63,090 bases of DNA, taken from NCBI GenBank assembly GCA_030167865.1, contig JALAGF010002624.1, forward strand, positions 1 to 63,090, given 5' to 3'. The notes beneath the pieces are model-generated. The model was given only the letters and a program-made list of their open reading frames with translations, had not been told where the DNA came from and ran no database searches. The translations under genes were made by a program, and so were the position numbers. Source of the DNA: Craspedostauros australis. Its lineage: Eukaryota. Shown in pieces: positions 1 to 58,023 of this stretch (positions within the stretch are counted from its first letter, which is position 1; every line of letters begins with the position of its first letter).

Positions 1-516
1 GCAGGCCACGGAGATGCTGGAATCAAATGCAAACGAGATGGTCGTTGGTGCAGATGTAGGCCCCGAGGTCGGCATGGAAGTTGGTCTGCTGGTTGGTCTG
101 CTTGTTGGCTTGTTGGTCGGTGACGAGGTTGGATTGCTGGTCGCCGAGGCAACTGGCTGCCCGGTTGGCCTCGAAGTTGGTGCCCCAGTTGGTGGCGAGG
201 TTGGTGCAGAAGTCGGTGTGCTCGTCGGGATTCCGGTCGACGCAGTTGGTGCCGATGTGGGAGAGCTGGTAGGCGAACTGGTTGGTGCCACGCTGGGATT
301 GCTGCTCGGATTGGTGGAGGGTGCTCCCGTCTGTTTGTTGCCCTTGAAGTTCTTTGGGGTGAAACCGCCGTCGCCCTTCAGCAGTCTGGTTGCCTGCATC
401 GCGACATGAAGTTCGTCGGTTGGGTCAACCAATCTACGGCCGCGAAGGATGGCATCGATCGTCTTGCATTCGGCGAGCAAGATCGCCGTGATGGTAGCTG
501 CCTTGAACTTGAGCAT
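1..516 (-). CDS. Secreted Pro/Thr/Ser-repeat (mucin-like, cell-surface or cell-wall) protein, 5' part; runs off the left edge of the window
   Basis: Manual translation from ATG at 516 is stop-free to position 1: MLKFKAATITAILLAECKTIDAILRGRRLVDP...TRLLKG...PSTNPSSNPSVAPTSSPTSSPTSAPT...PTNKPTSRPTSRPTSMPTSGPTSAPTTISFAFDSSISVAC. It has a signal-peptide-like N-terminus, RxL motifs and about 20 PT/PSxx tetrapeptide repeats. The listed + ORF 14..409 (VG-rich) is its antisense shadow. Confidence 0.85.
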   Translation of the reverse strand, partial: MLKFKAATITAILLAECKTIDAILRGRRLVDPTDELHVAMQATRLLKGDGGFTPKNFKGNKQTGAPSTNPSSNPSVAPTSSPTSSPTSAPTASTGIPTSTPTSAPTSPPTGAPTSRPTGQPVASATSNPTSSPTNKPTSRPTSRPTSMPTSGPTSAPTTISFAFDSSISVAC

Positions 517-10929: not shown

Positions 10930-11669
10930 CGGGTTTCGCTTCTTCGTTGTGCAATTCCTTTCCTCACTTCGCTTCGGTTGGTGTTGCTGTTGCTTTGTGG
11001 CAGATATGATACGTATTGTACGCTCCTTGCTGTGCCTTGGATGTCGTTGATGCCCACGTTGGTTGCAACCCGCAATGGAATGAGCGCCACAAAACTGAGT
11101 GGAATACACGTATTATAGAAGAAAGCAGAGGTTGCCCAGAGTGCTTCACACAATCTGATTGTCTTTGTGAGACCGTGAACGAAGAATGGATTTGCGTTGC
11201 TTGTCTCTTTGTGTGTGCAGCATCTCCGTCTTCGTCTCTCTCTATCTCTCTCTCTCTCCCTTGACACCATCCACGGAGATGGATGCAGAACCTCATCCCA
11301 AGACACGAAATACAGCATCGATGTCGATCCACGGAACGAAGTCAACCCGAAACACAACAAGAACAGACAGGACAAGCAAAGACACACACAACACACCACG
11401 AAAACACACACCAAACAAAACGTCTCAACACATTTCCTCCCGCCAATTTTGTCATGAGAAGAATCGGCGTAGACGTTATAAACCGTTATATTCAAGAATC
11501 CGCACGACTTGGACTTCAGACAGCACGATGAAGTCTGCATGTCGACCGTTCGCGCCACGACAAGAATGAAGAAATGGATCTTTTCTTGGTGGCAACAACA
11601 ACGACAACGATCACAGCAACAAGAATAGCGACCACCACCATGCTCCAACAAACACACACGCACACGCAC

Positions 11670-11716
11670 ACAGGCAGGCAGGCACACAGGCAGGCAGGCA
11701 CACAGGCAGGCAGGCA
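11670..11716. repeat. Imperfect (GGCA)n microsatellite
   Basis: caggcaggcaggcacacaggcaggcaggcacacaggcaggcaggcag. A complementary (TGCC)n tract lies at about 16443-16470. Confidence 0.8.
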
Positions 11717-16305: not shown

Positions 16306-16610
16306 CTAGAACTTAACAAAGTTGGAGTAGAATCTTCAGTTACCTACATATATTACCACGCAAGCACATTGCTCTGATAGAGAACTTCCGTCCACAGTTA
16401 TCAGAACGAGCATGATACTGGAATGACAGTCGCAAGCTTTCTTGCCTGCCTGCCTGCCTGCCTGCCTGCCTCATCGCATCTACTCGTAGACCGTCCAGAG
16501 CTCCCAAGAAAGATGTATCAGACTCCACAGAGAGTAATCACAGCCGTCTCCTTTCACCAAGAGCACATGCATTCGAATTCATGCCAGACAATACCGCATT
16601 GGACTACCGC

Positions 16611-17228: not shown

Positions 17229-17823
17229 GGTGATGAGTCCTGCGTCCTGTGTCGTCGTCTATGCAGGTGAGTGAAGAAGTAATCCACTTAGGAGTGAAAT
17301 GTGGATGGACGCGTGAGCAAGTGTCGTCGGCTTGTCTCGTTGGATCTCACGAATACTGTTGTTGTAAGTGTGAGTGCTGCCCAAATGGATCGGTCTTCGA
17401 CACAGCAGGAGTGCCAACCATCCGCCATGGTCCACAGCCTTTCCCAACGCAGGGGTGGTGGTGCTTGTGTGTTCTGCTGCATTTGTTCAGGACCATCAAC
17501 TTCTCGTTGCGGTATTGGAAGTTTGGACAAAAGATCCGGCTCCGGTTCGCATCGTTGCACTGCGGTGCAGAGAATCGCCAAAAGTACATTCATAGCGTTT
17601 GTTTGATGGGTGTGACGCACGTTTGTTCTTCGCTTTCTGCAGTTCGCGTCCGAATGGCACAATGCGCGCGGAGGATTGGATGAATGTGAACAGGGGTGAT
17701 GCCTGCAACCACCACAGCGATGAGTATGTACCACCCTCTTCACCACAAGTACCAATACGAGCAGCCCCATCAACGACGCCATCAACAACACGCTCCATCG
17801 TTTCGTCAAACTTCCTCCACTGC

Positions 17824-19968
17824 ATGCGGCGGCGGTTCCAGTTTGCTCACGTCGTCCTCCTTCAGGTTCTGAATGTGCCTATCCGCATCGAGGCTTGGAC
17901 GACCTTCCGATTGCTGATACCTTCCCTGGTCGAGCCGCATCCAGAGGACGCATCTCGTGCACGAACGCTCCCGACCGCATCCGTCAGCACGGAACTCCAA
18001 TCAGATGATACGACATCCTGTACGAGCGAATCTGTCGGCAAAGAGAGGACATCGTCACGACGACAGCGGCGCAGAAGTGGCGACAAGCATCGAAGTGGAA
18101 CTGGTGAATTGATCGACGCGAAACCATCCAGCCACCTCGATGATCCATGGGAGTTGCAAAGGCGTCACATCAAGGCGATACTCCAACCATCAGTCGGTGA
18201 ACTCTCTTTCATCGCCGGTGTGACGAGTAATGACCGAAGCGGCCATCACCCATGCGCTCTATTGCGCACCGAATGGAGTTTCAATCAAAGCAATGATGCA
18301 GATTTCTCGCACAGGCTCTCCACCATCCCGGCCCATCAAATACGAATAGAAGCATTTCGATTCGACGAAGCAGAGTTGGACCATTGGACGTCACGGTACA
18401 ATAAACCAGTCGTTGTTGGACCAGTTCAGGAAACAAGGAGGGAGGATCGATTTGTGGCCGAGCTCCAGTCGGCAATCCTCAATTGGCAGTGCCTTGGGAA
18501 TTTCAAACGCAACTGCAACCATGTCGATTGGAACGAGGATCCCTTTCGTAGCTCACCCGTCGATGAGGAAATGCATGATTCAAGCTCGCCATTGCCACCA
18601 GTCCACGTATCGTTCCAAGTTTCCTTCATTCCCACCAGGCAACAACGCACCAATTCGCGGGAGCGACGATCGTCGAGGAAGCCTAGAAATCGAAAGGAGC
18701 CTCGCTCAGAGCTCCAGCATCACATTGGGAAATGGATCTCGAACGTTCTCGTGGAGCACGACTACATGTTCTTTGGATCGGACCAAGAAGATGAGAGCGC
18801 CTCGAGCAGTAGGATTCGGCGAAAGCAACGCGCACGATTCCGCAAGTGTTCTGCGAAGGAGACTCCGATGATGCATTTTTATGTTCAAGAAATTCATCCC
18901 GTTTGCGACAGAGGCAACAGCAGCAGAAACAACGATACTGCGAACACCAAAACTGCATGGGCTTTGGAGCTCATCACGCATGAACGAATCTACCCGTTAT
19001 CCGCACGGAAAATGATGAACGTGATTTCTTCGTCCACCTCCAGATCGCCAAGTGTGATGCGACAAAATGCGCAGCATCGGCAGAAGCAGCAACGAATTGA
19101 GTCATTCTTCGTCGCAAGGACAGCAGAAATCGAACGCGGGGATGTTGTCCTCGATCCCAATTGTGGTCGCGGCACGTTTCTGATCGAGGCCGCAAAGTAC
19201 TGGCCGCTGGCAACGTACCACGGCATCGACGTGAATGCAGGACATGTGGAACATGTGCGGATGAATGCCAGATCAACAAGCACCCGCATTCATGTGCAGC
19301 GAGTAGATGTTGGGAGATACTACCAGAATGCCCCCAAGCCGCAAAGGAAGGCTATCACGAAAATGTCCAAACCTTCCAACGTCGGAACGGAAACCAATCC
19401 ATCAATACAGCAACGGCCCGTGTGGGCCTTTGCCAATGGCTCTGTCGACAAGATCATGTCTCGCTTCCCCACATCCAAGCACAAAGGCACAATCTCGCCG
19501 GATGCGACAGCTTCTTTGTGGATGCAGGAGTGCTGTCGCGTCCTGCGTCCAGGCACCGGCAGAATGGTACTGCTCGTCAACACAGAAGACTTTGAGCCAT
19601 TTCTGTCGTGGATGCACGACGCAGCCATCGATACAGACGGATGTCATGTCGTTCAAGTTCGACAGCCATTTCGACAGGGTAACCAGCTCATGTATACTGT
19701 GGTACTCGCGAAGGGAGGCACAGAGCTTGGTGCAGACTTGACGCCGATTGCTCGTTTTCCATGGGAGTCTGTCCACAAAGAAATGAAGCAACGACAGTCG
19801 CAGCAAAGCGAGAGCATGGTCGAACCAGGTGGAATCAACGCGAACAGACAAGATGAGAAAGATCGCATTCAATCAGGTGTTGATTTGGTTGACAAAGGGC
19901 GGTGGTCACGAATTCGATCTCAAACATGCCCGCTGATGGTGCCGTACACATCCAAGCACTTCAATTGA
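17824..19968 (+). CDS. SAM-dependent RNA methyltransferase-like protein (UPF0020 / THUMPD-type); start may be 17662 or 17824
   Basis: Within the 789-codon ORF 17599..19968. It has GDVVLDPNCGRGTFLIEAAKYWP (motif I), YHGIDVN, FANGSVDKI and ECCRVLRPGTGRMVLL. Confidence 0.8.
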   Translation: MRRRFQFAHVVLLQVLNVPIRIEAWTTFRLLIPSLVEPHPEDASRARTLPTASVSTELQSDDTTSCTSESVGKERTSSRRQRRRSGDKHRSGTGELIDAKPSSHLDDPWELQRRHIKAILQPSVGELSFIAGVTSNDRSGHHPCALLRTEWSFNQSNDADFSHRLSTIPAHQIRIEAFRFDEAELDHWTSRYNKPVVVGPVQETRREDRFVAELQSAILNWQCLGNFKRNCNHVDWNEDPFRSSPVDEEMHDSSSPLPPVHVSFQVSFIPTRQQRTNSRERRSSRKPRNRKEPRSELQHHIGKWISNVLVEHDYMFFGSDQEDESASSSRIRRKQRARFRKCSAKETPMMHFYVQEIHPVCDRGNSSRNNDTANTKTAWALELITHERIYPLSARKMMNVISSSTSRSPSVMRQNAQHRQKQQRIESFFVARTAEIERGDVVLDPNCGRGTFLIEAAKYWPLATYHGIDVNAGHVEHVRMNARSTSTRIHVQRVDVGRYYQNAPKPQRKAITKMSKPSNVGTETNPSIQQRPVWAFANGSVDKIMSRFPTSKHKGTISPDATASLWMQECCRVLRPGTGRMVLLVNTEDFEPFLSWMHDAAIDTDGCHVVQVRQPFRQGNQLMYTVVLAKGGTELGADLTPIARFPWESVHKEMKQRQSQQSESMVEPGGINANRQDEKDRIQSGVDLVDKGRWSRIRSQTCPLMVPYTSKHFN

Positions 19969-20125
19969 ATTGAATTGATGCTACGATGTCAGCGAGGGCA
20001 ACGGACGCAGGTGATCGTGTGTTGGTGTGTTTGCCATCATGACAAATTCAAAGTCGGCACTGCACTTCGGAACACCCTGCAACACCATCCCTCATAACAC
20101 TTCCCAATGCGCCACCTCGTGACGG

Positions 20126-20577
20126 TGACGTCGTCATCAACAAGTGATTGAATGGAAGCGAAGCAAAATGAGAATGTCCGTCAGCAACCCCCTCGCCCTC
20201 TGTCTCGGATGCGGAATGGGATCGCATCACGCCGCGCCACATCATGGCATACCACGTCGCATCTCGTGCACACAGACGAGTACGTGGATCCTTGCATCGC
20301 ATGTCTGATGTCGACGTCAACAAGAACATTGCGGAAAGATACGGCACAAGATACAAACACACTTGGAATTGTGGCCAGCGAGGAGGTATTTCTGCCAACT
20401 CGTGAACAATGCATGACGTCAACTGCAGGGTCGATTATTATTGGATGATGTTATTCACGAGACATACGTCATCGCGTTAATTGTCCACGTCGTCTTTCTT
20501 TTTGTGATGACGTCTCCCAACGTTTTCATTGGATGTATCGTGTCGTTAGACGTCACAGATGACGTAGGCAATGACGT
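20126..20577. promoter_or_regulatory. Cluster of eight TGACGT/ACGTCA (CRE/bZIP/aureochrome-type) sites upstream of the cyclin gene
   Basis: Sites at 20126, 20314, 20414 (palindromic TGACGTCA), 20466, 20508, 20550, 20560 and 20572. Confidence 0.65.
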
Positions 20578-21352
20578 TTTTGTCAGAAACAGACGTTTCC
20601 TTTCCTTGTGTCAACCAAACACGGGGAAGCGAAGGCAAAGAGAGAAGCGGCGAAAGAGAACAGGTTCTGATCCGCATTGGCTGCTCGCTTGCTCGCACAG
20701 CGAGTTGTTTGGACGCACGCAGCGAAGCGGCCAGAAAGGAACAAGGAGGTATCCGCACACACGATGGTGGGCGACCAAGGACAGAGAGAGACAGACATGG
20801 AAATGGTCACCGTTTCTGCCTTCACTGGAGTTGCATTTTCGATCAAACAGCGTGTTTCGTCTTTGGCTAAACGTCGTGCAGTTGCATGTGACCGTTGCAC
20901 TTGCTCTCCGTGAGCGAAGAATCAACTGCAGCATCAGCAGAATTGTTGGCCAAGGGTGATGGCAGGAACACTGTCCACACAACCACACAGCCCAGTGATG
21001 ACGATCAACAGAACAAACACGCAAACACTCTGCGAACAACCGGACGCGCAACGTCGTGTTGATGAATGATTTGGACTGACGAGCCCCACTCTCGAGTGTC
21101 TTGATCAAGACCCATCTCATGTGATCATTCCAATCAGGCAATCGTTGCAACTCACACCAATCGCATCACAATCATAGCATCATACTGGTGCAAACCTTCG
21201 CTTCCACACTTGCCACACCGACAACAACGCGAGCCTTTTGCCTCCCTCCAGTCTTCTTCGCATCACACATGCTCATAAAATTCGAACCAACGAGCACTCA
21301 TCATCTCAAAACAACAATAACAATAACAACAGCATCAACAACAACAACGACC

Positions 21353-22627
21353 ATGCACAATATGCACATCCTCGTTTCTGTTCAGCCAAACTCTGAGTTG
21401 GCTGCCAACATGAATCCACTGCGACCACATGCGCATCAAGCAGACTGCTCCTGCGTCAACCATGGTCATGCTGGTACTTATGACAACCAACAGCAACAAC
21501 AACACCAGCAGCCGCCGCAGGAGCAACTGCTACAGGAAGACCAGCCCGCATACCTGCGACAACGGCAGGAAGAGGTCCGTGATCGCATTCAGCACATGAA
21601 GAAACTCGAATCCACAACGTACAACCGATCCGCGCACGCGAAGCATCCCTTCCTCATGTGCGACCCCCAGCAGAACAAAACGTGGCGACGCCAAATGATC
21701 GATTGGATCGCCTCCATCGTGGGGCATTGCAAGCTGCAGCCCGAGGTGGTGAGTGCTGCCGCCTACTATATGGACGTGGCTGTGTCGTCGTCGTATACTT
21801 GCACCGGTGAAATCTGCGACACACGCTCTGCGGATACCATCGCCATCACGCCGCAGCAGTACTCCTGCCTGGCACTGACATCCTTGGTTCTCGCATTGAA
21901 GGCTTTCGACTCTCCGCATCAGCGGCTTCTCAAGCTCACGGCTTTGGTCGGGCTGGGTGACGGCAGCTTCGACGTGCAAGATGTGGAGCACATGGAGCGC
22001 CAATTGCTGCGCGTGCTCAAGTGGAGAATCCACGTCCCCACACCCAACTGCTTCGTGAATCAGTATCTCGCGCTGATGACGGATTGGAAGATCGACGATG
22101 ACATCTTTGATCACAGTTGCGAGTCCGATGATGAAAGCCGCGATCACGACAGCTCCGTCTTTGCGGATCACATTCGCACACTCGCAGAGGATGCCATCAT
22201 CGAGTCCATCCGCAATCCCAATTACGTTCATTGCAAGCCATCCAAACTTGCGCAAGCGGCCATCGGCGTTGCCATCCAACAGCTGTCACAAGGCATCGAT
22301 CTTCGCCGCCCGCCGTCGTTTGCTTCGGATAGCATGGCGCTCTCTGCTGTATCGTTCCATTTCTTTGAAGATCAAATCAAGGCTGCGGATGGCATCGATT
22401 TCGATACGCTGCAGGCGTATGCCGGCCAATGGAAGCGCATCATTGCGCTCGGCGACGATGTGGTCTCACAAGCCACGCCCATGGCGGCGGATGCACCTTG
22501 CGACGCCACGGGATGCCATCCACCGAAAGCCCACGCAGGCCAACCGTCGACGCCCACACAGAAAACGCATGACACGTCGCAGCAGTCTCCCATCCAGGTT
22601 GTGGAATACTACGAGTACGAGACATGA
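21353..22627 (+). CDS. Cyclin (diatom-specific cyclin-like)
   Basis: Cyclin N-box WRRQMIDWIASIVGHCKLQPEVVSAAAYYMD...YSCLALTSLVLALK...DVEHMERQLLRVLKWRIHVPTPNCFV and C-box KPSKLAQAAI. ATG 21353 follows a CAA-rich leader; an alternative ATG is at 21269. Confidence 0.92.
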   Translation: MHNMHILVSVQPNSELAANMNPLRPHAHQADCSCVNHGHAGTYDNQQQQQHQQPPQEQLLQEDQPAYLRQRQEEVRDRIQHMKKLESTTYNRSAHAKHPFLMCDPQQNKTWRRQMIDWIASIVGHCKLQPEVVSAAAYYMDVAVSSSYTCTGEICDTRSADTIAITPQQYSCLALTSLVLALKAFDSPHQRLLKLTALVGLGDGSFDVQDVEHMERQLLRVLKWRIHVPTPNCFVNQYLALMTDWKIDDDIFDHSCESDDESRDHDSSVFADHIRTLAEDAIIESIRNPNYVHCKPSKLAQAAIGVAIQQLSQGIDLRRPPSFASDSMALSAVSFHFFEDQIKAADGIDFDTLQAYAGQWKRIIALGDDVVSQATPMAADAPCDATGCHPPKAHAGQPSTPTQKTHDTSQQSPIQVVEYYEYET

Positions 22628-26892: not shown

Positions 26893-29207
26893 ATGGTGAT
26901 CAACCTGCAGTTCCCTTGGAGGCTGCATCGCATGCTGGATCAGGCGGAGGATGGCGACTTCAAGGGCATCGTGAGCTGGATCATGGAGGACAAGGCCTTC
27001 TCCGTGCATGACATCGACGGCTTCGAACGTGTCGTCATGCCCAAGTTCTTCACATCGCACAAGTACAAGTCCTTCCAACGCAATCTCAACATCTGGGGCT
27101 TCGTGCAGATACGCCTTGGATACAAGGCGCGGTGCGGTTACTGCCACCCGTACTTCGTGCGAGGTCAGCCGAATCTGTGCTGCCTCATGACGCGATCCAC
27201 TATCAAGACAACACGTGCTGCTGCCGAGGCACAGGCTGCGTTGGAGGCGGCGTCGTCAGCGGCCACGGTGTCCGGGACAGGCCTCGTGCCCGCATCTGTC
27301 ATCGTGAATGGGAGGGATGCTTCATCAACACCTGCAGCAGCAACAAAGGATCAATCCACGTTCACTTCGCAGGACACATCCCAACTTCAGAAGCAGCAGT
27401 CTCAGAGTCGTCAGGCCACGGTGCCGACGGGCAGGCACCTGGGGCAACAGTTGTCGGTTGAGCTCCTCATGAGCCTCGCCAATGGGGGGACTGGCGCCAT
27501 GTCAGGCGGTAATGATCGCTCGGCCGCACCTTCCCCAGCAACACCCATGCATGAGAGCTCTGCAACGGCACAGCAGTCTCAAAGTCAACAGAACCAGCCA
27601 CTTCACACTTTGGTTCCCCCACAAGCTCAGCGAGGGGTGTATCCGCAGCAGCAACAGCAGCAAGAAGAGCAGCAACAACAAGAAGCGCAGCAGCAACCTC
27701 TGACGGTAGGATTGCCTCCAACGGTACCATTGGCATTTCCTCAGAGCCTTCATCGCGTTCTGGCTCTAGAGGAAGAGCATCCATTCATCTCTTGGATGCC
27801 GAACGGTCGCAGCTTTCGCATCATCGACGCTTCCAAGCTCAGCACCGACAAACTGCGGGCTTGCTTTGGACACGACAACCTCGCGCAGTTCTTTCAGTCG
27901 CTGCTTAATTACGGATTCACCTTCCTCATTGCGGGAGCAAACTCGGGATCGTTCTATCATGAGGTAAGTGCGAAAAAAGACGGCAGGGAAGGGGAAGAAA
28001 GGAGCAACCTCTTGTCTCAGGATCGTCTTGCATCTTTCGTGGTGCTTGGGTGAGCTCCAGAGCTTATCGTTTCTCACCAGCAATCTCTCGTGTAAATGAA
28101 GCTGAATGTGATTCCGAGACAATTAGGGGGGTTTCTCAACGAACCTTGACGCACCCACCATACATGCCCGTATGGCACGCCAGAGCATTCCAAACCAATC
28201 GGTTCTATCAAATCTTTGAGCGTGCAGAGAACCATTTGTTTGTTCAAAGCGATGACAAAACCATCAAAACTGCCTCCCTCATCGCTCACAGCCACTTGTT
28301 CAATCTGCGTACTCCACAAACACACATTGCGTATCCTTCCGAAATCGGCATTGCTCCACATGTGAATCGGTGCATTGGGTTGCACTACCCCGCTTCGATG
28401 ATACACGTTTTGCGTCATGACTCCTATTGGATCCCCCAGCTAATGATCCGAGGGTACCCACATCTCACGAGACACATGTCATCGCCTGAAGAGTCCCGAA
28501 AGTACAAACCCGATTTCAACACCGATCCGATATTTGCGCTATCACCCACTGCTGACGCAGCTACGAGCACCAGTATCGATGGTACTCCATGCAATCCCAT
28601 CGTACTGGGCGACGGCGGTATCTTGTCTCCCCGTAAGCAGGCACTTGAGCAACAGATACAGATACTGCCACCGCAGCCGCAGCAATTGTTGCAGATAAAC
28701 ATGCAACCACCGATTGTTGCTGGCCTGCCACCGATTCACATGGCGCCTGGTCAGGTCCAAACACAGCAGCCGCCAATCTTCGTACCACTTGGTGGCGCAT
28801 TGATGCCTCCTCCCGGAGTTTCAGCAATCGTTAACAGCACCCAAGCCAGTGCGCAGACCACCGACTCCGACAGCGCCACCAACACTGAAGAACAAAAGAA
28901 CGAACTGTCGACGAATTGGCAGAATCTCCTTCCCGACGCCAGCTACAAACCTCTCGCCAACACCACTTTCATCCCACCTGGTCCTTTTCCAACGGCAACG
29001 CTACCAGCGTTCCAAATCAACGGCGCCGAAACGACACCAGCCCCACCGACCGTCGCAGTTATGCCGGACGGCAACGGCAATGGCGATGGCAACAACCAAA
29101 ACCAGCCGCAGGCAGCAGTGCTCGATTTCGTATTCCAGTTCGCCAACAGTCTTGTTCAGCAACAGAACAATGGCGATCCACAAGGTCCAGACAAAAAGGG
29201 GTCGTGA
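26893..29207 (+). CDS. Heat shock factor (HSF)-type transcription factor with two HSF DNA-binding domains, 2 exons
   Basis: Exons 26893-27963 and 28440-29207 give 612 aa. Domain 1: FPWRLHRML...IVSW...F...SFQRNLNIWGF...YCHPYFVRG. Domain 2: FPQSLHRVL...ISWMPNGRSFRI...NYGF...FYHE|LMIRGYPHL, split by the intron. Gln/Pro-rich linkers. Confidence 0.9.
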
Positions 29208-29617: not shown

Positions 29618-31444
29618 CTACTCCGTCTTGGTGAAAAGGGCAAGAAAGAAACCTCCAGTGTCGTGATCCTGCGGCCAAAGGCGCACGCATCGTTCCAAGT
29701 GAAGGGACTCGTTCGTGTCCGATTGGCCCTTTTGTGTGGACCACAAGGTCTTGGGCAAGGCATGATGCTGATTGCATTCTCTAGCTTCTTGCCACGACGC
29801 AAACCACTTCAGTTGTGCGGATTCTCCATCATCGCTGTCGCTGTGGTCCTGCTGCTTGTCCTCGTCGTCGTTCTTGGCGCCGTCCTTATCCCCGTCTTTG
29901 TTGTTGTCGCCGCCGTCATCCAAGTAAGTCGCCACGCGCCAGGTCGATATGCCGGGCCGATGCGTGAATCCGTTCAATTGCGGCATGTCCAGCAATTCCA
30001 CCGCCTCCACTTTGCGCAAAGCCGCCGCCACGACGGCTTCATCTTCGATGGGATTGAGGGAGCAGGTGGAATAGCACACGATGCCACCGACCGGCATCAA
30101 TTGCAAGGCGCGCACCAAGATGCGCAGTTGCGTTGTGTGCAGTTCGTTGCCCAGCTGGGGCTTCCACATGGGCAGTACGTGCTTGTCCTTGCGGATCGTG
30201 CCGTCGCCGGAACATGGGACATCGCAGACCAGGATGTTCCACGCAGTGCGCGTTGTGGGCAGTTCGATCTTGCTGGCGTCTTGGCAGGAGTACGTGATGC
30301 GTTCGATGAGGTTGTCGGCAATGCCAGATCGTTGCACGGCCTGCTGCAAGCTATCGAGTCGGGATTGCAAGATGTCGTTGGCGATGATGCGTCCTGGTTT
30401 CTTCGTTTTGGTGGGTGCACCTGCGATGATCTCCAATGCCTGCATCGTTTTCGAACCAGGGCTGGCGCACATATCCACGACGCGCGCGCCGTATCTTAAC
30501 CCGTCAATGAAACTGTCTCTGTCGCCGCCATTGCTTTTGCGCTGTCTTCGTTCTTGCGCCAATCGATACAGCACCATGACAGGTAACATACTGCCGATTT
30601 CCTGACGCGCCAAGACACCGGACTCGGACCACGCCACGATCTGACGATGCAGTTTCGGAAATTGTTGCGACAGCGCCGCCTTGAACAATCCAGATTCGGA
30701 CGTTGCCTGGTAGATTTCGGAATACTCGTCACTCCAGGCCACCTTGCGGAATGTATCATCCTTCAGGATGTAGTCGCGCACGTCATCGAGCTGCGACTGC
30801 GGCAACAGTGATTTGCGAAGCCGCAATGTGAGCGGCAATGGCCGAGAGAATGCGTGGAAGAATGGGAGGTATGCGAGTGACGCGTTCTTGCTGTTGTTGT
30901 TGTTGTCAGTGGCGCTCTTGGAATGTTTGCTCCATGCCTGAAGGAGGGGACGATCATCGCCTTGCAACAGCGTTTCCATGTGCGCGAGCGTTGGCAGTTG
31001 CGTTGTTGTTGTTTGCGAGTTGGACGGCTCGATGGTTGTTTGTGGCGTGGCGTCATCAAGCGCCTGCGGCTTGGTGTTTTTCTTCTTCTTGCGTCGCTTC
31101 TTGGCAGCACGTGACATGCCTCGTTGCTGTTGTTGCGGTTGCGGTTGCGGTTGCGGTTGCGGTTGCTTGTTGCTATTGTTCTCTTGTGCGTCGGACGACG
31201 ACTGCTGACCGGACCTGACCGTGCCCCTGAATGCGACGAGATCATCGCCATCGACCGTGCTACCGCAGACGGTACCTGCAGGTTGCTGCATGTAGTACTG
31301 CACGAAGAGGTCATAGCCAGCACCTGAACGGCGGAACCAGATGTTCTCATGCCGTTGCTGCTTGCCACGCGCCTGCGACAAGGGGTTCATGCCGCGTTTG
31401 CGCTTGGATTTCGGTTCCGTCGCCAGTTCGTCGCTGCGCATCAT
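29618..31444 (-). CDS. NSUN2: RNA (cytosine-5)-methyltransferase, NSUN2/Trm4-like (NOL1/NOP2/Sun family)
   Basis: 608 aa with RQEIGSMLPV, VVDMCASPGSKT, IIAND, LVCDVPCSGDGTIRK (motif IV Cys), YSTCSLNPIEDEAVV (motif VI Cys) and RLWPQDHDTGGFF. Confidence 0.88.
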   Translation of the reverse strand: MMRSDELATEPKSKRKRGMNPLSQARGKQQRHENIWFRRSGAGYDLFVQYYMQQPAGTVCGSTVDGDDLVAFRGTVRSGQQSSSDAQENNSNKQPQPQPQPQPQQQQRGMSRAAKKRRKKKKNTKPQALDDATPQTTIEPSNSQTTTTQLPTLAHMETLLQGDDRPLLQAWSKHSKSATDNNNNSKNASLAYLPFFHAFSRPLPLTLRLRKSLLPQSQLDDVRDYILKDDTFRKVAWSDEYSEIYQATSESGLFKAALSQQFPKLHRQIVAWSESGVLARQEIGSMLPVMVLYRLAQERRQRKSNGGDRDSFIDGLRYGARVVDMCASPGSKTMQALEIIAGAPTKTKKPGRIIANDILQSRLDSLQQAVQRSGIADNLIERITYSCQDASKIELPTTRTAWNILVCDVPCSGDGTIRKDKHVLPMWKPQLGNELHTTQLRILVRALQLMPVGGIVCYSTCSLNPIEDEAVVAAALRKVEAVELLDMPQLNGFTHRPGISTWRVATYLDDGGDNNKDGDKDGAKNDDEDKQQDHSDSDDGESAQLKWFASWQEARECNQHHALPKTLWSTQKGQSDTNESLHLERCVRLWPQDHDTGGFFLALFTKTE

Positions 31445-46617: not shown

Positions 46618-49600
46618 TTAACCGTCGTTGGTTCCACGCTTGAGCCTCTCAGCCTCGGCAGCGTGCATGTTGAACACTTGCTCGAGGGAGGTTTGGCTGA
46701 CCCCGTACTCGGCAACAGCAAGAGAATCCTTGTTCTCCTCGATGCTCTGGAAGATACTGGAGATCTTGACGCCACGGGAGCTGACTTCGTACCGAGCCTT
46801 CGTGTCCTGGCGTTCGCGCATGGTGGAGTCGGGGTAGTTGGTGGCGACGAAGTTGTGCAGCTGGCGCATGCGGACCTCCACGGTGGCGAAGGATGCGACC
46901 TCGCCGATTTCCACGCCGACTGGTGATGACGCAGCCTTGTACACGCCATATCCGTTTGGATTGTCGAGATTAATCATGTCGGCAAGGTAGCCGTCGCCAG
47001 TGACAGCGCGAAGTCCCTGCTGGACTTGATCCAACGTCAACATGACGGCATTAGTATCGTCGACAGCAACCTCGACGTCGGTGTCGGCTTCGACCTGCGT
47101 ACCCGCGGACACGCCGGCGCCTCCCGCGATGCGTTCCAAGTAGGTCTTGTAATCGACATCTCGGGTTTCGGCGTCCTTGATCTTCATTTCCACCTGGTAT
47201 CCCTGGCCGAACTTGTCTTTCAGATGCTGTGCTGATCCGATGCAGCGGATCTTTCCTCCGGCCATGATGGCGATGCGGGGGCACAGTGCCTCAGCTTCTT
47301 CCATGCTGTGGGTCGTCAGGATGACACTGGTTCGCTCTTCCTGTGGGATGTTTCCGCCATTGACCATGTCAGAAACCATCTGCCAGATCTCACGGCGGGC
47401 GACAGGGTCTGTTCGAAGGTGAAGTTATTTCGTTGCGTTGTGCAGGAGTCGGAATGGAGATGGAAATGCAAATGGAACAATCGAACCAAAAAGATTTGGG
47501 GTGAACGGCAACGGAAGTAGGAGGTTAGCGAACATTGCGCACGGACAGGCACAAGTGCGAATGTTGGTGATCACAATTGCATATCGCCGAATGTATGTAT
47601 GGAATGGAATGATGAGCGTTCGTGAGCAGCCCGCAACGTGATCGGATGGAAAATGAGGAGACTTACCGACGCCTGTGGAGCACTCATCCAAGAACACGAT
47701 CTGAGGCTGCCCGATCGTGGCGCATGCCAAGGAAAGACGGCGTTTCATGCCACCGCTGTATCCCATGCTGACACGGTCGCTGTCAAAGTCGTTGAGACCG
47801 ACCTCGGCCAGCTTCGAGGCGGCTGCCTCTTTCACGAGGTCAGGCGGGACGCCCTTGATACTTGCGTAGAGCTCGATGTGCTCTCGTCCTGTCATGTTGG
47901 TGAAATGGGCATCGAACTGCGGGCAGTATCCGACGCGGCGTCTGGTCTTTTCAGGTTCGCGCGAGACGCTGAAGCCAGCGAGTGTGGCGTCGCCTGTTGT
48001 GGGTGGGAATTCGGCTGTGAGCATGCCCATCGTGGTGGTCTTTCCAGCGCCGTTGATTCCGAGCAAGGAGAAGCACTGTCCCGGTGGGATTCCCAACGAG
48101 ATGTTGTTGACGGCGACCTTTCCGTTGCTGTAGACCTTGGAGAGTTTATCGATGACGATCATGTCGTTGTTGGCACCGCCGGACTGGACTCTTTCCTGTT
48201 CAGCGATCACATCGCTATCATCTGGGACCTCGGTCTGGAGCTCGCTGTGCTGGCGGACCGGGCAGAAGATCATTCGCAAACAAAGGATGTCGATGACCTT
48301 CTGGTACATGATGACGGCTTCGGGGTTGGAAGATAGCTGATCGATCTTCATGGCGATGAGAAGGTAAATGATGCTCTGCCACGCGAGGAAGATGATTTCG
48401 TACAGCGCGATCTCCTCATCCCACGCAGTGATCTCGGATCCTGAGAGCAGCTCGATGATTTCGATGTTCATGCAGGAGAACAGACCCTTGCTGAGGTTGA
48501 AGGATGGGATAAACCGGAGAATCCATTCAACGGCCTTCGTAATGTTCAGAAGGTTCTCGTCGGGATTTTCTGCGGATGTATGGTATTGTAGTGGCGAGGA
48601 TAGACAAGGGGGGAGTATTGCAGGTGCATGCGAAAATCGCGCAGAATGGCGCAGAGGAAATGTGGTGAGGTGATGAGATACAGTCACAAGCGAGGAATAC
48701 TGCATGGTACGTGACGTTGGCCATTGGCCAAGAAAGCGCGCTTGTTCGTGCACCAAGTTTTGTTCCAAGACAATTGTAAGTACGAGTACCATACACATGC
48801 ACGCGGTTGGAACTTACCATTGTCTTCAGCAATAATTCGCATGATGAATGTGGCCAGTGTTCCACCAAGGCCGATGAGGAAACCAGAAATGATGAGAATC
48901 AGGTTGCACATGCTTGGGGAAGTGAAGAAGAAGGAGACGATGTAGGAGAAGGATGCGGCTGCGGGCCCGAAGAAGATGAGCAGGCAGATGATGGCGCTGA
49001 TGACGTTGCGGGTAGATGTGGTGAACACGCTGATGTCGAAGATGAAGAGAAGAATGATGGTCAGCCACAGTGGGAACTGGTAGTTGGCCACATCCCAGAG
49101 CCAGGTGGAGACCCAATAGGCTGCCGGCTTGACACCAGCGACAGTCTGGAGGTGCTTGGCCTTCGATTCTCTCTCAGTGACGACGAAGGTGGCGAACGAT
49201 CCGGCAATGAATGGGAAACTCAGAGTGACAAGGAACCAGGTGACGAAAGCGTTATCTCCTTCGTCAAAGGCTTCCTCCACCGATGTCTTGGGCAGCGGGT
49301 GAATTGTGGTGCGGATCCTGAAGTTGTTGTCTCCCGTGGCCTCGCGCACGATGGCTTCATCAGCGAGGGTTTGGTACAATGGCGCGACGTGAAGTGCGGT
49401 GTAGTTGTATCTGATGGTATAACCGATTCCTCCGTAGTTTTGACATTCGTTGGGGTTGACGTAGTCCTGACCAACGACTTGCTCTTGGCACCTCGCGATG
49501 GTGGCATCGGCGTAGGAAGAGCCAGTCCCGTTCGAGTCCAAGACACTGTCTGGGAAGTGAGTGAAGAAGAGAGCACCGTAGGTGCTGGCAGCGAAGCTGG

Positions 49601-52600
49601 AAGCAGTGTCGAAAAGAAATTCGGAGGCATCGAAGACATTGGATTGGTCCGTTGGCACGCCGAAGGCGCCGAACTCTTGTAAGCCATCCGCGATCTCCTG
49701 AGACTGGGTGATGGTGCACTGCGGCAGATCGGGCAGGGTTGCTGCGACGCCGCAGAATGTGTAAGACTCGCCGGTCTCGTCGAGTTCCACGATGGGGACC
49801 GGATCAGCGCAGCGGGCGTTCTGGCAGAAGTATGACGAATTTGGCTCGTTGAATGGGATCGGGTTTCTATCGATAGAAATCCCGTCATTGTAATCGTCGA
49901 GAGTGAGCTCCAAGGATTTCATGTCGGGCTCAACGACGACGTATTTGTTGAGGATGAGGCCGATGAGGACAAAGAAGGATGGGAGGATGGTGGTGCACAC
50001 CCAAGCTTTCTTGTCTCTCTTGAAGTTCAATGCACGCTTCTGGAACAGCGCAGTGACGTGGGTGTTGAACAGATCTTCCTTGTCGAAGTCGATGCGGGAG
50101 CGGGAGGACTTCTCGCCGTCGTCTTCGTCCTTCATCACGCTCTGATCGGCAGGGGGTGCCGACTCGTCACCGTTGTCGATCTGCATGCGGGAAGAAGCCA
50201 TGCGGGATTTGGAGTTGTTGGCGCTGTCACCTCTTGCGACGAGCAAGAAGACTTCATCGAGAGTCGTGATGCCCACACCGTATGTGACGATGTTGCCATT
50301 GTCGACCTTATCGTCCAAGCCATCGAACATGCCCTTGAAGCTGGAAGCGGCGGCGAGGGGGAGCTGGAAGCTGAGTTCTGTTCCCACGTTGCTGAGCAGT
50401 GTGCAGTCCGGAACGGAGCCCTTGACGATCTCGGTGAGACTGTCATCGATCTCCTCCTTCGTGCCTGCCACGACATCTTGCGGTTGCTTCTCGATTGTGA
50501 GCTGGTATCCGACGCCATAAGTCTTCTTCAGGAACAGCGAGCTTCCGATGCAGCGCAAACGTCCTGCGGACATGATGGCGATGCGGTCGCCGAGGATATC
50601 GGCTTCGTCCTGTGCGTGATGGATGATACAATACGAATGAGCCGACGTTAGTTCGGATGCAAGTGCAAGCGCGAGTGTGAGCGCATATGTGAATGGATGT
50701 AGAGATGAGGTAGTAGCAGCAAGTCAAAGCAGGTGAGCACCAAGCTTCGTGTCCGGAGCATGGGGCGATGGCACGGTCGATTACAGCGGTGTGCACGGAC
50801 ACGATTGGGAGTGCAACAGAGCCAAGCAGAGCGGAGCACAAGCCGACGTACCATGAAATGGGTGGTGAGGATGATGCAACGGTCGCGACGGTACTGACGG
50901 ATAACGTTCCAAGTGAATCGTCTCGAGAAGGGGTCCTGTGGTGTTTTTTTTTTGCAAAGGAAGAAACATATGGAAAGAGAGTCAAGAAGGAAGACGAAAG
51001 AGCATATTGTGTTCAAGTGTGAGATTCATTGATTCGCTCGCTCGTTCGTTGGTTCGTTCGTTGGTTCGTCCTTGGTTCATGGCTTGCGGCGTCTTCTTGA
51101 GTATGCACCAACTTACCATGCCGGAGGTTGGTTCGTCAAGGAGCACGGTCTTGCTGTCGCCGCAGAATGCAATGGCAACGGAGAGCTTGCGCTTCATGCC
51201 ACCGCTGAGATTCTTGGAGAACGTGTTGCGCTTCTCGTGCAAGGCGACGTCTTCGATGCTTTGGTCGATCTTCTCTTCGGCTTCCTGGGCGGACATTTTG
51301 TTGTACATTCCCTTGATCCTGGCGAAGAATTGGACGTGTTCCCTGACGGTGAGCATGGGGAAGAGGCAGTCGTGCTGCAAGCAGATGCCGATCTCTTGTC
51401 GAATGGAGGTCATGTTGGTACGGATGTCCCTGCCGCCGATGGTTGCGTATCCCTCCGTCGGAGCGATCATACCGGTCAACATGCTGATCGTGGTGGTCTT
51501 TCCTGCGCCGTTGTGTCCGAGCAGGGCGGTGATCTGGTCTCTGTACAGCGACATGCTGAGTCCGTCGACGGCAGTCTTCTCTCCGAAGGTCTTGCGGAGG
51601 TTGCGGACCTCGATGCTCTTGCCTTGGCGCTTTTGTGCCTTGACGGAGTCCGAAACCTCCTCGGCTGGGATGCCATCTTGGTACACGACCTCCTCGTCTT
51701 CGTTCTCGTCCGTCTGGGAATTGACGCTACCTGGGCACCAGTAGCTCTTGGTGAATGGGAAGTACCATGGGAGAGGCTGTCCGAGTTCGAGCACGATGAC
51801 ACGGTTGGCGTACCAGGTGAGGACACCCCAAAGGACGCAGTCGACGATGAGGTTGTTCAGGGCGTTGGTAAAGGTGTAGCCAGATGGGTTGTCGGTTTCG
51901 TCGATGCTTCCAGGCTTCAGACCGATTCCAGCATCTTCCAGGCGACCGATCTCGTTGATACCGTAGGAGAATGCTGCGACGGGGTGGAGGGAGATGAGTC
52001 CGATGGTGCCGATGTTGCCGTCCTCAAAGGTTGTGATCAAGGTGAGGAAGTATCCGCAGAAGAAGAACAAGAGTCCCACCAGGGTTGCCTTGGTGGCCTT
52101 GGCGAAGAAGGCCGAGATGAACAGGCAGAAGACGATGACCGCGGTGAAGGTGAAGATCCAGAAGAAGAGAATGTAGCCGAAGTCCGAGTTTTCGTAGAGG
52201 CCATTGAATGCGAGCGCTGTGACGACGGCGGTGACGAGATGGAAGCTCCAGAAGGTCAAGAACCAGGACCAACCGATGTCGGATTCGGTGACACTCATCA
52301 TCTTCATGAGCTCCTTCTGGCGCAGTTCCTTCTCCTGTACGACGTAACGGATCATGGCCGAGACGGGGTAGAGGAGTCCCAAGGTGATCAGCAGACTTGC
52401 GAACTCTGCGGATGGGCATGGGACGAGCGCGGATTGTGACATCGAGAACGTGCAGAATTTGGTGGTGGTGAGAAGAGCGATAGCGATAACACGGCATTGC
52501 ACAATGTAGTACAACAACAAACCAATCCGCTTGCGAGTAACGATGCTGGAAAAATCTTCGTTGCGCAACACCGTACCGTAGGACGGAACTTACCGGCAAT

Positions 52601-57345: not shown

Positions 57346-57417
57346 AGGCGAGTGGCGCAACGGTAGCGCATCTGACTTCTAATCAGGGGGTTGCGGGTTC
57401 GAGTCCCGTCTTGCCTA
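57346..57417 (+). tRNA. tRNA-Arg (anticodon TCT), intronless
   Basis: Cloverleaf: acceptor AGGCGAG/CTTGCCT, D-stem GCGC/GCGC, anticodon arm TCTGA-CTTCTAA-TCAGG, T-arm GCGGG-TTCGAGT-CCCGT, discriminator A. Confidence 0.93.
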
Positions 57418-57420
57418 CAC

Positions 57421-57425: not shown

Positions 57426-57900
57426 GTTTGGGCGTCCGTTCAACGCGGCTTCGCCTTGGGTATTTGTTTTGCCTGAAAGTTGGGTGAGTTGTTCGCTATT
57501 TTTCGGTTTTTGTGCGAATGACCATGACCATGTTTCTCCCGATCGTTGGCGGAGAGTACAGTTTGTGATAGCAGTGTGATTTAAGCCTACGGCTAGGGAG
57601 TCGGTGGACATTTGCAATGACCGCACCAAATGGCGGTGGAAAACACACAAATCGAACCAAAAGGGCGCGATGCGGCCGCAAAGATCCTCTGCTTGGTTTA
57701 GCGCGAGAGCGAAGCCCAAAAAGATACTCTTTCGTCTCTTTTTCTCGGGTTGGATGTCAGCCCTCTTTCTCTTCGGCGGTGCTTGGCGACAGCCCCAACA
57801 CAGGTTGTGGCTCGTACCACGGCCTTCACAGCCGCCCCGTGGAATAGTTCTGTGCACACCAGCCGTAGCCGAACGACATCGATCGCCCGAGGCTGCCTGG

Positions 57901-57948
57901 GATTATCGGAGATTGTCAGAGATTGTCAGAGATTGTCAGAGATTGTCA
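57901..57948. repeat. 10-bp tandem repeat (GATTGTCAGA), 3 perfect and 2 imperfect copies
   Basis: gattatcgga gattgtcaga gattgtcaga gattgtcaga gattgtca, about 75-120 bp upstream of the TPR gene ATG. Confidence 0.9.
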
Positions 57949-58023
57949 CTTCCACAACATCCAGAAGGACGACAGCATCATCATCATCATCATCAACGAC
58001 TCCCACCCGCTCACTCAATCACC

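What the first reader, a model, noticed from the sequence alone, without database searches (positions are those of the whole stretch)
20126..20577. Dense TGACGT/CRE cluster upstream of a diatom-type cyclin: candidate blue-light (aureochrome/bZIP) cell-cycle switch
Seen: eight TGACGT/ACGTCA hexamers in about 450 bp (20126, 20314, 20414 palindromic TGACGTCA, 20466, 20508, 20550, 20560, 20572), seven of them within 264 bp. Extra ACGT cores lie nearby, and the cluster is 0.8-1.2 kb upstream of the cyclin ATG. A uniform-base expectation is about 0.2 sites in this length, and elsewhere in the window I saw only scattered single sites. Established: stramenopile aureochromes (bZIP-LOV) bind TGACGT, and in Phaeodactylum the cyclin dsCYC2 is induced by blue light via AUREO1a with a bZIP partner. 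Inference: this is a homotypic bZIP enhancer gating this cyclin by light.
Basis: partly seen in the sequence, partly recalled or inferred. Interest (0 to 1): 0.75.

Follow-up and report, generated by a model that had tools for sequence, protein, structure and literature searches.

The report
bZIP-site cluster upstream of a cyclin
A non-coding spacer upstream of a divergent cyclin gene carries an unusually dense cluster of TGACGT sites, the kind bound by bZIP transcription factors, so it is probably a signal-responsive control region, though the signal cannot be read from the sequence.

Summary
All eight TGACGT/ACGTCA sites are at the stated coordinates, with seven in 264 bp and eight in 452 bp. 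No dinucleotide shuffle of the window exceeded five sites (0 of 2000). The window as a whole is not enriched (49 strand hits against 46.4 expected). Five more ACGT cores lie among the sites.

The cluster is unique, non-coding DNA and not a tandem repeat. It lies 157-609 bp past the stop of a methyltransferase-like ORF and 691-1143 bp before the first ATG of a cyclin ORF. The cyclin is real but divergent: Cyclin_N E 9e-13, and a two-domain model matching cyclin A2 and D1.

Most likely this is a homotypic bZIP-site regulatory module for the cyclin. The blue-light/aureochrome reading is a fair analogy to Phaeodactylum dsCYC2 but is untested:
- The organism was not identified.
- dsCYC membership could not be tested.
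- The same hexamer also serves the CO2/cAMP factor PtbZIP11.
- The sites lie further from the gene than the characterised diatom elements I could locate.

I rate it a new member of a known kind, of moderate interest.

The parts
20126..20131 (+). TGACGT site 1 (context TGACGTCG; contains the C-box GACGTC)
20314..20319 (-). TGACGT site 2 (reads TGACGTCG on the minus strand; GACGTC core)
20414..20421 (.). Site 3, the full palindromic CRE TGACGTCA (preceded by A: ATGACGTCA)
20466..20471 (-). TGACGT site 4 (minus strand, GATGACGTAT)
20508..20513 (+). TGACGT site 5 (GATGACGTCT)
20550..20555 (-). TGACGT site 6 (minus strand, TGTGACGTCT)
20560..20565 (+). TGACGT site 7 (GATGACGTAG), core 12 bp from site 6
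20572..20577 (+). TGACGT site 8 (AATGACGTTT), core 12 bp from site 7
20254..20257 (.). Extra ACGT core, context CCACGTCG (G/C-box hybrid)
20282..20285 (.). Extra ACGT core, context GTACGTGG
20487..20490 (.). Extra ACGT core, context CCACGTCG (same octamer as at 20252-20259)
20520..20523 (.). Extra ACGT core, context CAACGTTT
20593..20596 (.). Extra ACGT core, context AGACGTTT
19969..21268 (.). 1.3-kb non-coding spacer between two + strand ORFs. It is unique in the window, shows no coding signal in any frame, and its two ORFs (20507-20959 +, 20611-21120 -) have no Pfam match and negative codon scores.
21269..22627 (+). Cyclin ORF, 452 aa. Cyclin_N at residues 108-254. The model has two helical cyclin folds over residues 94-394. 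An in-frame stop lies at 21122-21124, and the 147 nt before the ATG are ATG-free.
17662..19968 (+). Upstream ORF, 768 aa, with a methyltransferase domain at residues 484-552 and weak codon bias. Its stop codon lies 157 bp before site 1.
20154..20163 (+). GGAAGCGAAG, copy 1 of a second motif confined to this spacer
20625..20634 (+). GGAAGCGAAG, copy 2, 48 bp past the last TGACGT site
21196..21205 (-). GGAAGCGAAG, copy 3, inverted, 64 bp before the cyclin ATG

Best explanation
The 20126-20596 stretch is a homotypic cis-regulatory module. It holds eight TGACGT sites (one a full TGACGTCA palindrome; six of nine oriented instances read TGACGTC) and five further ACGT cores, each an independent copy of a bZIP-dimer recognition site. 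The most likely function is to recruit bZIP dimers and set transcription of the next gene downstream on the same strand, a divergent A/D-like cyclin. Many weak or asymmetric sites packed into about 450 bp would give a steep, signal-dependent response.

Shown here: the sites exist, they are clustered far beyond chance, they are not copies of a longer repeat, the DNA is non-coding, and the downstream gene is a cyclin.

Inferred: that bZIP proteins bind, that the cyclin is the target, and which signal acts.

The leading candidate input is blue light through an aureochrome (alone or with a bZIP partner), by analogy with P. tricornutum dsCYC2. I put that at about 0.25-0.3 absolute. A CREB/ATF-like cAMP/CO2 route is about 0.1-0.15. 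Some other bZIP takes the remainder of the 0.6.
For: Clustering:
- 8 sites in 452 bp and 7 in 264 bp, against a maximum of 5 in 2000 dinucleotide shuffles.
- Local shuffles give a mean of 0.84 and a maximum of 5 in 5000.
- It is the second most extreme cluster of any hexamer in the window.
- Site density is 17.7 per kb, against 0.43 per kb in the rest of the non-ORF DNA.

Nature of the DNA:
- No longer repeat unit links the sites, and the spacer is unique in the window.
- There is no coding signal or Pfam match in the spacer.
- Rfam finds nothing there.

Link to the cyclin:
- The cyclin has 7 sites in its upstream 1 kb, while the other 22 putative ORFs have at most 2.
- The cyclin is genuine: Cyclin_N at 48.5 bits against a cut-off of 23. 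The model matches cyclin A2 and D1 with target-normalised TM-scores of 0.74-0.77.

Literature:
- TGACGT is the aureochrome target, and PtAu1a binds a dsCYC2-promoter probe with 9.6-fold higher affinity in blue light (PMC4721966, passages).
- dsCYC2 and other promoters carry more than one TGACGT/NNACGT site (PMC4937327, discussion passage).
- PtAUREO1a and 1b activate the dsCYC2 promoter in yeast one-hybrid (PMC10967249, section 22).
- A Seminavis dsCyc2 homologue is induced by blue light within 15 min (PMC8413402, passages).
Against: - No binding, expression or transcription-start data exist for this locus.
- The cluster is 691-1143 bp from the cyclin ATG and only 157-609 bp from the stop of the upstream ORF. 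It could belong to another transcript.
- If transcription started just after the cluster, the leader would carry 9 upstream ATGs. The start is therefore more likely within about 150 nt of the ATG, which makes the cluster distal. Characterised diatom CO2-responsive TGACGT elements are proximal, at -86 to -42 of the transcription start (PMC7378808) or within about 300 bp of the ATG (PMC11142338).
- Conservation in orthologous promoters could not be examined.
- The organism is unidentified.
- Only one core-to-core spacing (102 bp) falls in the 100-150 bp range noted for dsCYC2 (PMC4937327).
- Helical phasing of the sites is not significant (p = 0.23).
- One 63-kb window cannot give the genome-wide frequency of such clusters.
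Confidence: 0.6

Rival explanations
1. One reading: the array is an aureochrome (bZIP-LOV) target, with or without a bZIP10-like partner. It gates this cyclin, and hence G1 exit, by blue light, as AUREO1a gates dsCYC2 in P. tricornutum. This is a sub-case of the best explanation.
For: TGACGT is the 'aureo box' (PMC4937327). PtAu1a binds a dsCYC2 promoter probe better in light (PMC4721966). Yeast one-hybrid shows activation of the dsCYC2 promoter, tested as about 1 kb of upstream DNA (PMC10967249, section 22). The Seminavis dsCyc2 homologue responds to blue light (PMC8413402). The gene here is a divergent cyclin whose only detectable PDB sequence matches are weak ones to cyclin A (best E 7.8e-4), as expected of a lineage-specific cyclin.
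Against: - It was not shown that the organism is a photosynthetic stramenopile: no named relative appeared, the atlas gave no taxon clue, and no ASAFAP-type presequence was found in 74 ORFs.
- Orthology to dsCYC2 is untested.
- The motif is shared with other bZIPs (PMC11142338, PMC7378808).
- Yeast one-hybrid activation by PtAUREO1a was the same in light and dark (PMC10967249, section 22).
Confidence: 0.27
2. The array is a CO2/cAMP-responsive module of the PtCA1 type. CREB/ATF-like bZIPs (PtbZIP11-like) bind TGACGT/ACGTCA on both strands, coupling the cyclin to carbon supply or to cAMP signalling in general. This is also a sub-case of the best explanation.
For: TGACGT, ACGTCA and TGACGC are the CCRE1-3 elements of PtCA1/2 (PMC7378808, passage). 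TGACGT/C motifs on both strands mark the CO2-responsive PtBST1, PtCA1 and PtCA2 promoters (PMC11142338, passages). The sites here lie on both strands, in the order + - (palindrome) - + - + +.
Against: There is no TGACGC in the spacer: 0 there, of 31 in the window. Known CCREs lie at -86 to -42 of the transcription start, whereas these sites are at least 691 bp from the ATG. The gene is a cyclin, not a carbon-concentrating component.
Confidence: 0.12
3. The cluster is a real bZIP module but serves a different transcript. Candidates are an unannotated non-coding or antisense RNA starting at the 3' end of the methyltransferase-like gene, or the 3' end of that gene itself.
For: The cluster is nearer the upstream stop codon (157-609 bp) than the cyclin ATG (691-1143 bp). 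bZIP sites work in either orientation. A leader running from the cluster to the cyclin ATG would hold 9 upstream ATGs.
Against: No coding signal or Pfam or Rfam match supports another gene in the spacer. The cyclin is the only annotatable gene whose 5' side faces the cluster.
Confidence: 0.15
4. The region encodes a structured RNA on the minus strand, and the motif copies are its paired arms.
For: The minus strand of 20300-20600 folds at -89.2 kcal/mol, z = -3.24, with 0 of 100 shuffles as stable. With the hexamers held fixed and only the spacers shuffled, z is still -2.53 (5 of 200 as stable).
Against: The plus strand gives z = -1.21. Copies of a near-palindromic motif in both orientations pair with each other by construction. 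There is no Rfam match, no covariation data and no evidence of transcription.
Confidence: 0.03
5. The cluster is non-random but without function, for example a product of local small duplications.
For: Two 19-nt stretches that include sites 1 and 2 are 84% alike at 180-bp spacing (family D5). Sites 6-8 lie 12 bp apart.
Against: The flanks of the eight sites otherwise differ. Tandem Repeats Finder reports no array in the cluster. The exact hexamer is kept in all eight sites while the surrounding bases vary, which is the pattern expected under selection on the motif.
Confidence: 0.07

Closest known systems
P. tricornutum dsCYC2 promoter with AUREO1a (and 1b, bZIP10)
   Same: Both have TGACGT-type sites, more than one, in the roughly 1 kb upstream of a divergent cyclin. 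The bZIP-LOV factor binds such a site better in blue light, and the promoter is activated in yeast one-hybrid (PMC4721966, PMC4937327, PMC10967249).
   Different: This locus has eight exact TGACGT sites plus five more ACGT cores in about 470 bp, with spacings of 12-186 bp rather than the 100-150 bp noted for dsCYC2. Species, orthology, binding and light response are all unknown here. I could not read the primary paper (Huysman 2013, not held), so I do not know the number or position of sites in dsCYC2.
CO2-cAMP-responsive elements CCRE1-3 of PtCA1/PtCA2 (PtbZIP11)
   Same: The hexamers TGACGT and ACGTCA are the same and occur on both strands (PMC7378808, PMC11142338).
   Different: CCREs are three elements at -86 to -42 of the transcription start and include TGACGC. 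Here there is no TGACGC, the sites are at least 691 bp from the ATG, and the gene is a cyclin.
Metazoan cAMP response element (CRE, TGACGTCA) bound by CREB/ATF
   Same: The core is identical, and one full palindrome lies at 20414-20421. The half-site logic is the same (CRE consensus as quoted in bioRxiv 10.1101/2022.05.19.492614).
   Different: Seven of the eight sites here are half-CREs with a variable second half. A cluster of eight is far denser than typical CRE promoters; that comparison is my own recollection, not from any call.
Fission-yeast M26 heptamer ATGACGT bound by Atf1-Pcr1 (recalled; not checked in any call)
   Same: Five of the eight sites carry the heptamer ATGACGT.
   Different: M26 is known as a chromatin-opening recombination hotspot rather than a cyclin switch. 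Nothing here bears on recombination.

Membership tests
Homotypic cluster of bZIP (ACGT-core / CRE) binding sites | Several exact copies of the recognition motif | tested here: met
   8 TGACGT sites, including one TGACGTCA, plus 5 further ACGT cores
Homotypic cluster of bZIP (ACGT-core / CRE) binding sites | Clustering beyond a composition-matched background | tested here: met
   0 of 2000 window shuffles and 0 of 5000 local shuffles reach the observed count. It ranks second among all hexamers. The test covers this 63-kb window only.
Homotypic cluster of bZIP (ACGT-core / CRE) binding sites | Lies in non-coding DNA on the 5' side of a gene | tested here: met
   No coding signal from 19900 to 21100. 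The cyclin ATG is 691 bp downstream.
Homotypic cluster of bZIP (ACGT-core / CRE) binding sites | Occupied by bZIP proteins | not testable with these tools
   Needs EMSA, DAP-seq or ChIP.
Homotypic cluster of bZIP (ACGT-core / CRE) binding sites | Sites conserved in orthologous promoters | not testable with these tools
   The closest relatives (P0001 at 54% identity, P0003 at 39%) sit on contigs of 1749 and 2395 bases in collections that cannot be fetched here.
AUREO1a-dsCYC2 blue-light cell-cycle switch | Organism has aureochromes (photosynthetic stramenopile) | tested here: inconclusive
   The organism was not identified: hits were unnamed, the atlas gave no useful taxa, and the ASAFAP-type motif scan found 0 of 74 ORFs.
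AUREO1a-dsCYC2 blue-light cell-cycle switch | Target gene is the dsCYC2 orthologue | not testable with these tools
AUREO1a-dsCYC2 blue-light cell-cycle switch | TGACGT in the roughly 1 kb upstream of the gene | tested here: met
   7 sites within 1000 bp of the ATG, and 8 within 1143 bp.
AUREO1a-dsCYC2 blue-light cell-cycle switch | Sites 100-150 bp apart (PMC4937327) | tested here: inconclusive
   Core spacings are 186, 102, 50, 44, 40, 12 and 12 bp. Only one lies in that range.
AUREO1a-dsCYC2 blue-light cell-cycle switch | Rapid induction of the transcript by blue light | not testable with these tools
   Needs expression data.
CO2-cAMP-responsive elements (PtCA1 type) | TGACGT and ACGTCA on both strands | tested here: met
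   Five + and four - strand hits.
CO2-cAMP-responsive elements (PtCA1 type) | TGACGC variant (CCRE3) present | tested here: not met
   0 in 19969-21268, of 31 in the window.
CO2-cAMP-responsive elements (PtCA1 type) | Within about 100 bp of the transcription start | tested here: inconclusive
   The transcription start is unknown. The sites are at least 691 bp from the ATG, and a leader from the cluster would hold 9 upstream ATGs.
Cyclin (CDK-activating, A/B/D/E-like) | Cyclin_N domain above Pfam's cut-off | tested here: met
   48.5 bits against a cut-off of 23, E 9.1e-13, residues 108-254.
Cyclin (CDK-activating, A/B/D/E-like) | Two tandem cyclin folds | tested here: met
   The model is helical over residues 94-394, with 134 residues at pLDDT 90 or above (mean 67.3). 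Best matches are cyclin A2 (7b7s_D, E 2e-7, target-normalised TM-score 0.74) and cyclin D1 (6p8h_A, 0.77).
Diatom-specific cyclins (dsCYC) | Clusters only with diatom cyclins in a cyclin phylogeny (definition in PMC2872877) | not testable with these tools
   No named diatom or reference cyclins were available. Indirect evidence only: PDB sequence matches are weak (best cyclin A2, E 7.8e-4), while 18 unnamed library clusters match at E <= 1e-30.

The most novel reading that the evidence does not exclude
The 13-core ACGT array is a distal, enhancer-like platform that several aureochrome or bZIP dimers occupy cooperatively. Light-driven dimerisation would then be converted into an all-or-none burst of a G1 cyclin, in a species other than P. 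tricornutum. That would show that the light-to-cyclin wiring is conserved and works through site multiplicity, the looping or higher-order complex suggested but never shown in PMC4937327. The three GGAAGCGAAG copies that bracket the array and approach the ATG could mark a second factor tethering the array to the core promoter.
Probability: 0.15. Interest if true: 0.6.

Novelty: new member of a known kind. Interest (0 to 1): 0.37.

Why it matters
How photosynthetic protists tie cell division to light or carbon supply is known in molecular detail for one promoter in one species. If this locus responds to the same kind of factor, it would be a second and much denser natural example. It would give a compact 450-bp element for dissecting how site number and spacing shape a bZIP or aureochrome response, and a candidate light- or cAMP-inducible promoter part. 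As it stands, it is a statistically solid candidate, not a demonstrated switch.

Tried and rejected
Identifying the organism and naming the cyclin:
- Three word-indexed protein searches returned only two unnamed relatives, P0001 and P0003. Low-complexity words probably swamped the candidate lists.
- The full HMMER scan gave 1561 unnamed hits.
- Two atlas searches gave only generic cyclin or mannosyltransferase clusters, with no useful taxa.
- A scan for ASAFAP-type plastid presequences found 0 of 74 ORFs.

Other readings of the region:
- Helical phasing: for the 8 sites at a period of 10.5 bp, R = 0.43 and p = 0.23. A post-hoc subset of 6 gives p = 0.02, which I do not trust.
- Longer repeat, tandem array or mobile element: none.
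- Hidden gene in the spacer: no Pfam match and no coding signal.
- Known RNA family: none. The only Rfam hit in the window is a tRNA at 57346.
- Structured RNA: the minus-strand z of -3.24 falls to -2.53 with the motifs held fixed. I kept this only as a low-probability rival.

Literature that led nowhere:
- A search for diatom core-promoter or transcription-start rules found nothing usable (one search was a syntax error).
- Huysman 2013 (PMC3584536) and Ohno 2012 (PMC3252111) are not held. Their content is cited only through papers that quote them.
- I found no paper describing a dense TGACGT array upstream of a cyclin outside P. tricornutum. These searches cover only the held open-access library.

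Full report
**The observation.** Seven lie in 264 bp and eight in 452 bp. The window as a whole is not enriched for the hexamer, with 49 strand hits against 46.4 +/- 7.1 in dinucleotide shuffles. What is unusual is the clustering.

**How unusual the clustering is.**
- In 2000 dinucleotide-preserving shuffles of the window, no 264-bp or 452-bp window held more than 5 sites.
- In 20000 uniform re-placements of the 45 distinct sites, 7 in 264 bp and 8 in 452 bp never occurred.
- Shuffling only 20100-20600, which keeps the local composition that the motifs themselves inflate, gives a mean of 0.84 and a maximum of 5 in 5000.
TGACGT comes second, with an approximate scan E of 2.4e-6. It is beaten only by GTTGGT/ACCAAC in an apparent coding repeat at 44-300.
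- Outside the cluster, the most I find is 2 sites per 264 bp and 3 per 452 bp.

**Anatomy of the cluster.**
- Five more ACGT cores lie among the eight sites: CCACGTCG twice (20254, 20487), GTACGTGG (20282), AACGTT (20520) and GACGTT (20593). That makes 13 cores in about 470 bp, against a local-shuffle mean of 3.96 and maximum of 11.
- Six of nine oriented instances read TGACGTC, five contain the C-box GACGTC, and five carry ATGACGT.
- Apart from the core, the flanks differ. No longer direct repeat or tandem array links the sites, and the 1.3-kb spacer matches nothing else in the window. The sites are therefore independent copies of a short motif, which is the pattern expected of selection on a binding site.
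- Core-to-core spacings are 186, 102, 50, 44, 40, 12 and 12 bp. Helical phasing is not significant (p = 0.23).
- A caveat: over the whole spacer, the count of 15 ACGT cores is within the range of local shuffles (maximum 16).

**Surroundings.**
- The cluster lies in the spacer 19969-21268 between two + strand ORFs.
- Upstream is a 768-aa ORF with a methyltransferase domain and weak codon bias, ending at 19968.
- Downstream is a 452-aa ORF starting at 21269.
- The spacer shows no coding signal in any frame. Its two ORFs of at least 100 aa have negative codon scores and no Pfam match. Rfam finds nothing there.
- The cluster is 157-609 bp past the upstream stop and 691-1143 bp before the first ATG of the downstream ORF.
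- The cyclin reading frame is closed by a TGA at 21122-21124. The 147 nt before the ATG are ATG-free, while 9 ATGs lie between the cluster and 21268. The transcription start is therefore more likely close to the ATG than at the cluster, which would make the cluster a distal element. This is inference.
- Of 23 ORFs with a positive codon score, only this one has more than 2 sites in its upstream 1 kb; it has 7.

**The downstream gene.**
- It has a Cyclin_N domain (E 9.1e-13, 48.5 bits against a cut-off of 23).
- A model built on 20 relatives is helical over residues 94-394 (mean pLDDT 67.3, with 134 residues at 90 or above).
- The model matches cyclin A2 and cyclin D1, with target-normalised TM-scores of 0.74-0.77 at 16-19% identity.
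- By sequence it barely reaches the cyclins in the PDB (best E 7.8e-4).
- It has 18 unnamed library clusters at E <= 1e-30 and 284 at E <= 1e-10. The nearest relative is 54% identical over 53% of its length.
- It is thus a real but divergent A/D-like cyclin.
- Whether it is a 'diatom-specific cyclin' cannot be decided here.
- The organism also stays unidentified.

**What the cluster most likely does.** TGACGT and its relatives are bZIP-dimer sites. The literature I could read gives the following.
- It is the 'aureo box'. PtAUREO1a and 1c recognise its ACGT core (PMC4937327, abstract).
- PtAu1a binds a 24-bp dsCYC2-promoter probe carrying it with an EC50 of 860 nM in the dark and 90 nM in blue light (PMC4721966, results passage).
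- dsCYC2 and other promoters carry more than one TGACGT/NNACGT site, and an enhancer-like loop was proposed (PMC4937327, discussion).
- PtAUREO1a and 1b activate the dsCYC2 promoter in yeast one-hybrid, equally in light and dark (PMC10967249, section 22).
- A Seminavis dsCyc2 homologue is induced by blue light within 15 min (PMC8413402, passages).
- The same hexamers are also the CO2-cAMP elements of PtCA1/2, at -86 to -42 of the transcription start (PMC7378808), and targets of PtbZIP11 (PMC11142338).
- P. tricornutum has 23 bZIPs (PMC7670200).

**My commitment.** I commit to a bZIP-bound homotypic regulatory module acting on the cyclin, at 0.6. Within that, blue light through an aureochrome is the leading but unproven input (about 0.27), and a cAMP/CO2 route comes second (about 0.12). 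Against the cAMP/CO2 route are the absence of TGACGC, the distance from the gene, and the nature of the gene.

**Rivals outside that frame.**
- The module may serve another transcript, such as an antisense or non-coding RNA at the 3' end of the upstream gene (0.15).
- It may be a by-product of small duplications (0.07).
- It may be a structured minus-strand RNA (0.03). The minus strand folds with z = -3.24, and still -2.53 with the hexamers held fixed. The plus strand gives -1.21. Inverted copies of a near-palindromic motif pair by construction, and there is no covariation or Rfam support.

**Comparison with what is known, and novelty.** The locus works like the dsCYC2 promoter and like CRE or C-box promoters in general. 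It differs in the number and density of its sites and in their distance from the gene. It fails one defining feature of the PtCA1-type CCRE set (no TGACGC). Membership of the AUREO1a-dsCYC2 system rests on features I could not test. I found no paper describing such a dense array upstream of a cyclin outside P. tricornutum (searches, over the held library only). I rate it a new member of a known kind: a well-supported candidate element, ordinary in kind and unusual in density.

**What stayed unchecked.**
- The genome-wide frequency of such clusters.
- Orthologous promoters (contig collections closed).
- The primary papers of Huysman 2013 and Ohno 2012 (not held).
- The supplements of the papers cited.
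- All binding and expression evidence.

Noticed in passing
window 20154-20163 (+), 20625-20634 (+), 21196-21205 (-): The 10-mer GGAAGCGAAG occurs exactly three times in the 63-kb window, all inside this one spacer. Two copies bracket most of the TGACGT array, and one inverted copy lies 64 bp before the cyclin ATG. One-mismatch copies lie near other ORF starts, for example at 17628, 31637 and 44105. It may be a second factor's site.
   Followed up: partly
window 20420-20427 (+), 20877-20884 (-), 20923-20930 (+): CAACTGCA, which contains a Myb-like CAACTG core (my recollection), occurs three times in the spacer and only twice elsewhere in the window. The window-wide count is as expected by chance (5 against 4.1).
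   Followed up: partly
window 21269-22627, residues 440-441 of the cyclin: A serine-proline pair near the C-terminus (SPIQVVEY here) is kept in at least 90% of the 20 aligned relatives. The surrounding tail is otherwise unconserved and modelled with low confidence. It could be a CDK-type phosphorylation site or degron.
   Followed up: no
window 20300-20600, minus strand: The minus strand folds more stably than its shuffles: z = -3.24, and -2.53 with the TGACGT hexamers held fixed. The plus strand does not (z = -1.21). This is probably a by-product of inverted motif copies.
   Followed up: partly
window 44-300: This is the densest hexamer cluster in the window: GTTGGT/ACCAAC, 9 copies in 264 bp, with 12- and 24-bp periodic units. 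It lies inside an open frame on the minus strand (26-424) that has a positive codon score, so it is probably a coding repeat.
   Followed up: partly
window 26893-28053 (+): The ORF gives two separate matches to the HSF-type DNA-binding domain (Pfam E 2.5e-30, 2 stretches), separated by a glutamine-rich region. This would be a double-domain heat-shock-factor-like protein.
   Followed up: no
window 47425-53638 (-): Four consecutive or overlapping minus-strand ORFs carry ABC_tran and ABC2_membrane_3 domains. Together they look like one ABCA-type transporter gene interrupted by introns or frame changes.
   Followed up: no
window 57901-57948: A 10-bp tandem repeat (GATTGTCAGA, 4.8 copies, 94% matches) lies inside the TPR-containing ORF 57670-58581. 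The period is not a multiple of three.
   Followed up: no
window 11666-11716 and 16443-16471: A perfect 16-bp tandem repeat (GCACACAGGCAGGCAG, 3.2 copies) and a related TGCC/CAGG microsatellite lie about 4.7 kb apart.
   Followed up: no
window 31132-31166: A perfect hexamer repeat (GTTGCG, 5.8 copies) lies in the N-terminal part of the RsmB/F-type methyltransferase ORF 29618-31444 (-). It contributes to the CCGCAA/ACCGCA clusters seen in the hexamer scan.
   Followed up: no
window 57346-57418 (+): A single tRNA-Arg (anticodon TCT) is the only Rfam or ARAGORN hit in the window.
   Followed up: yes
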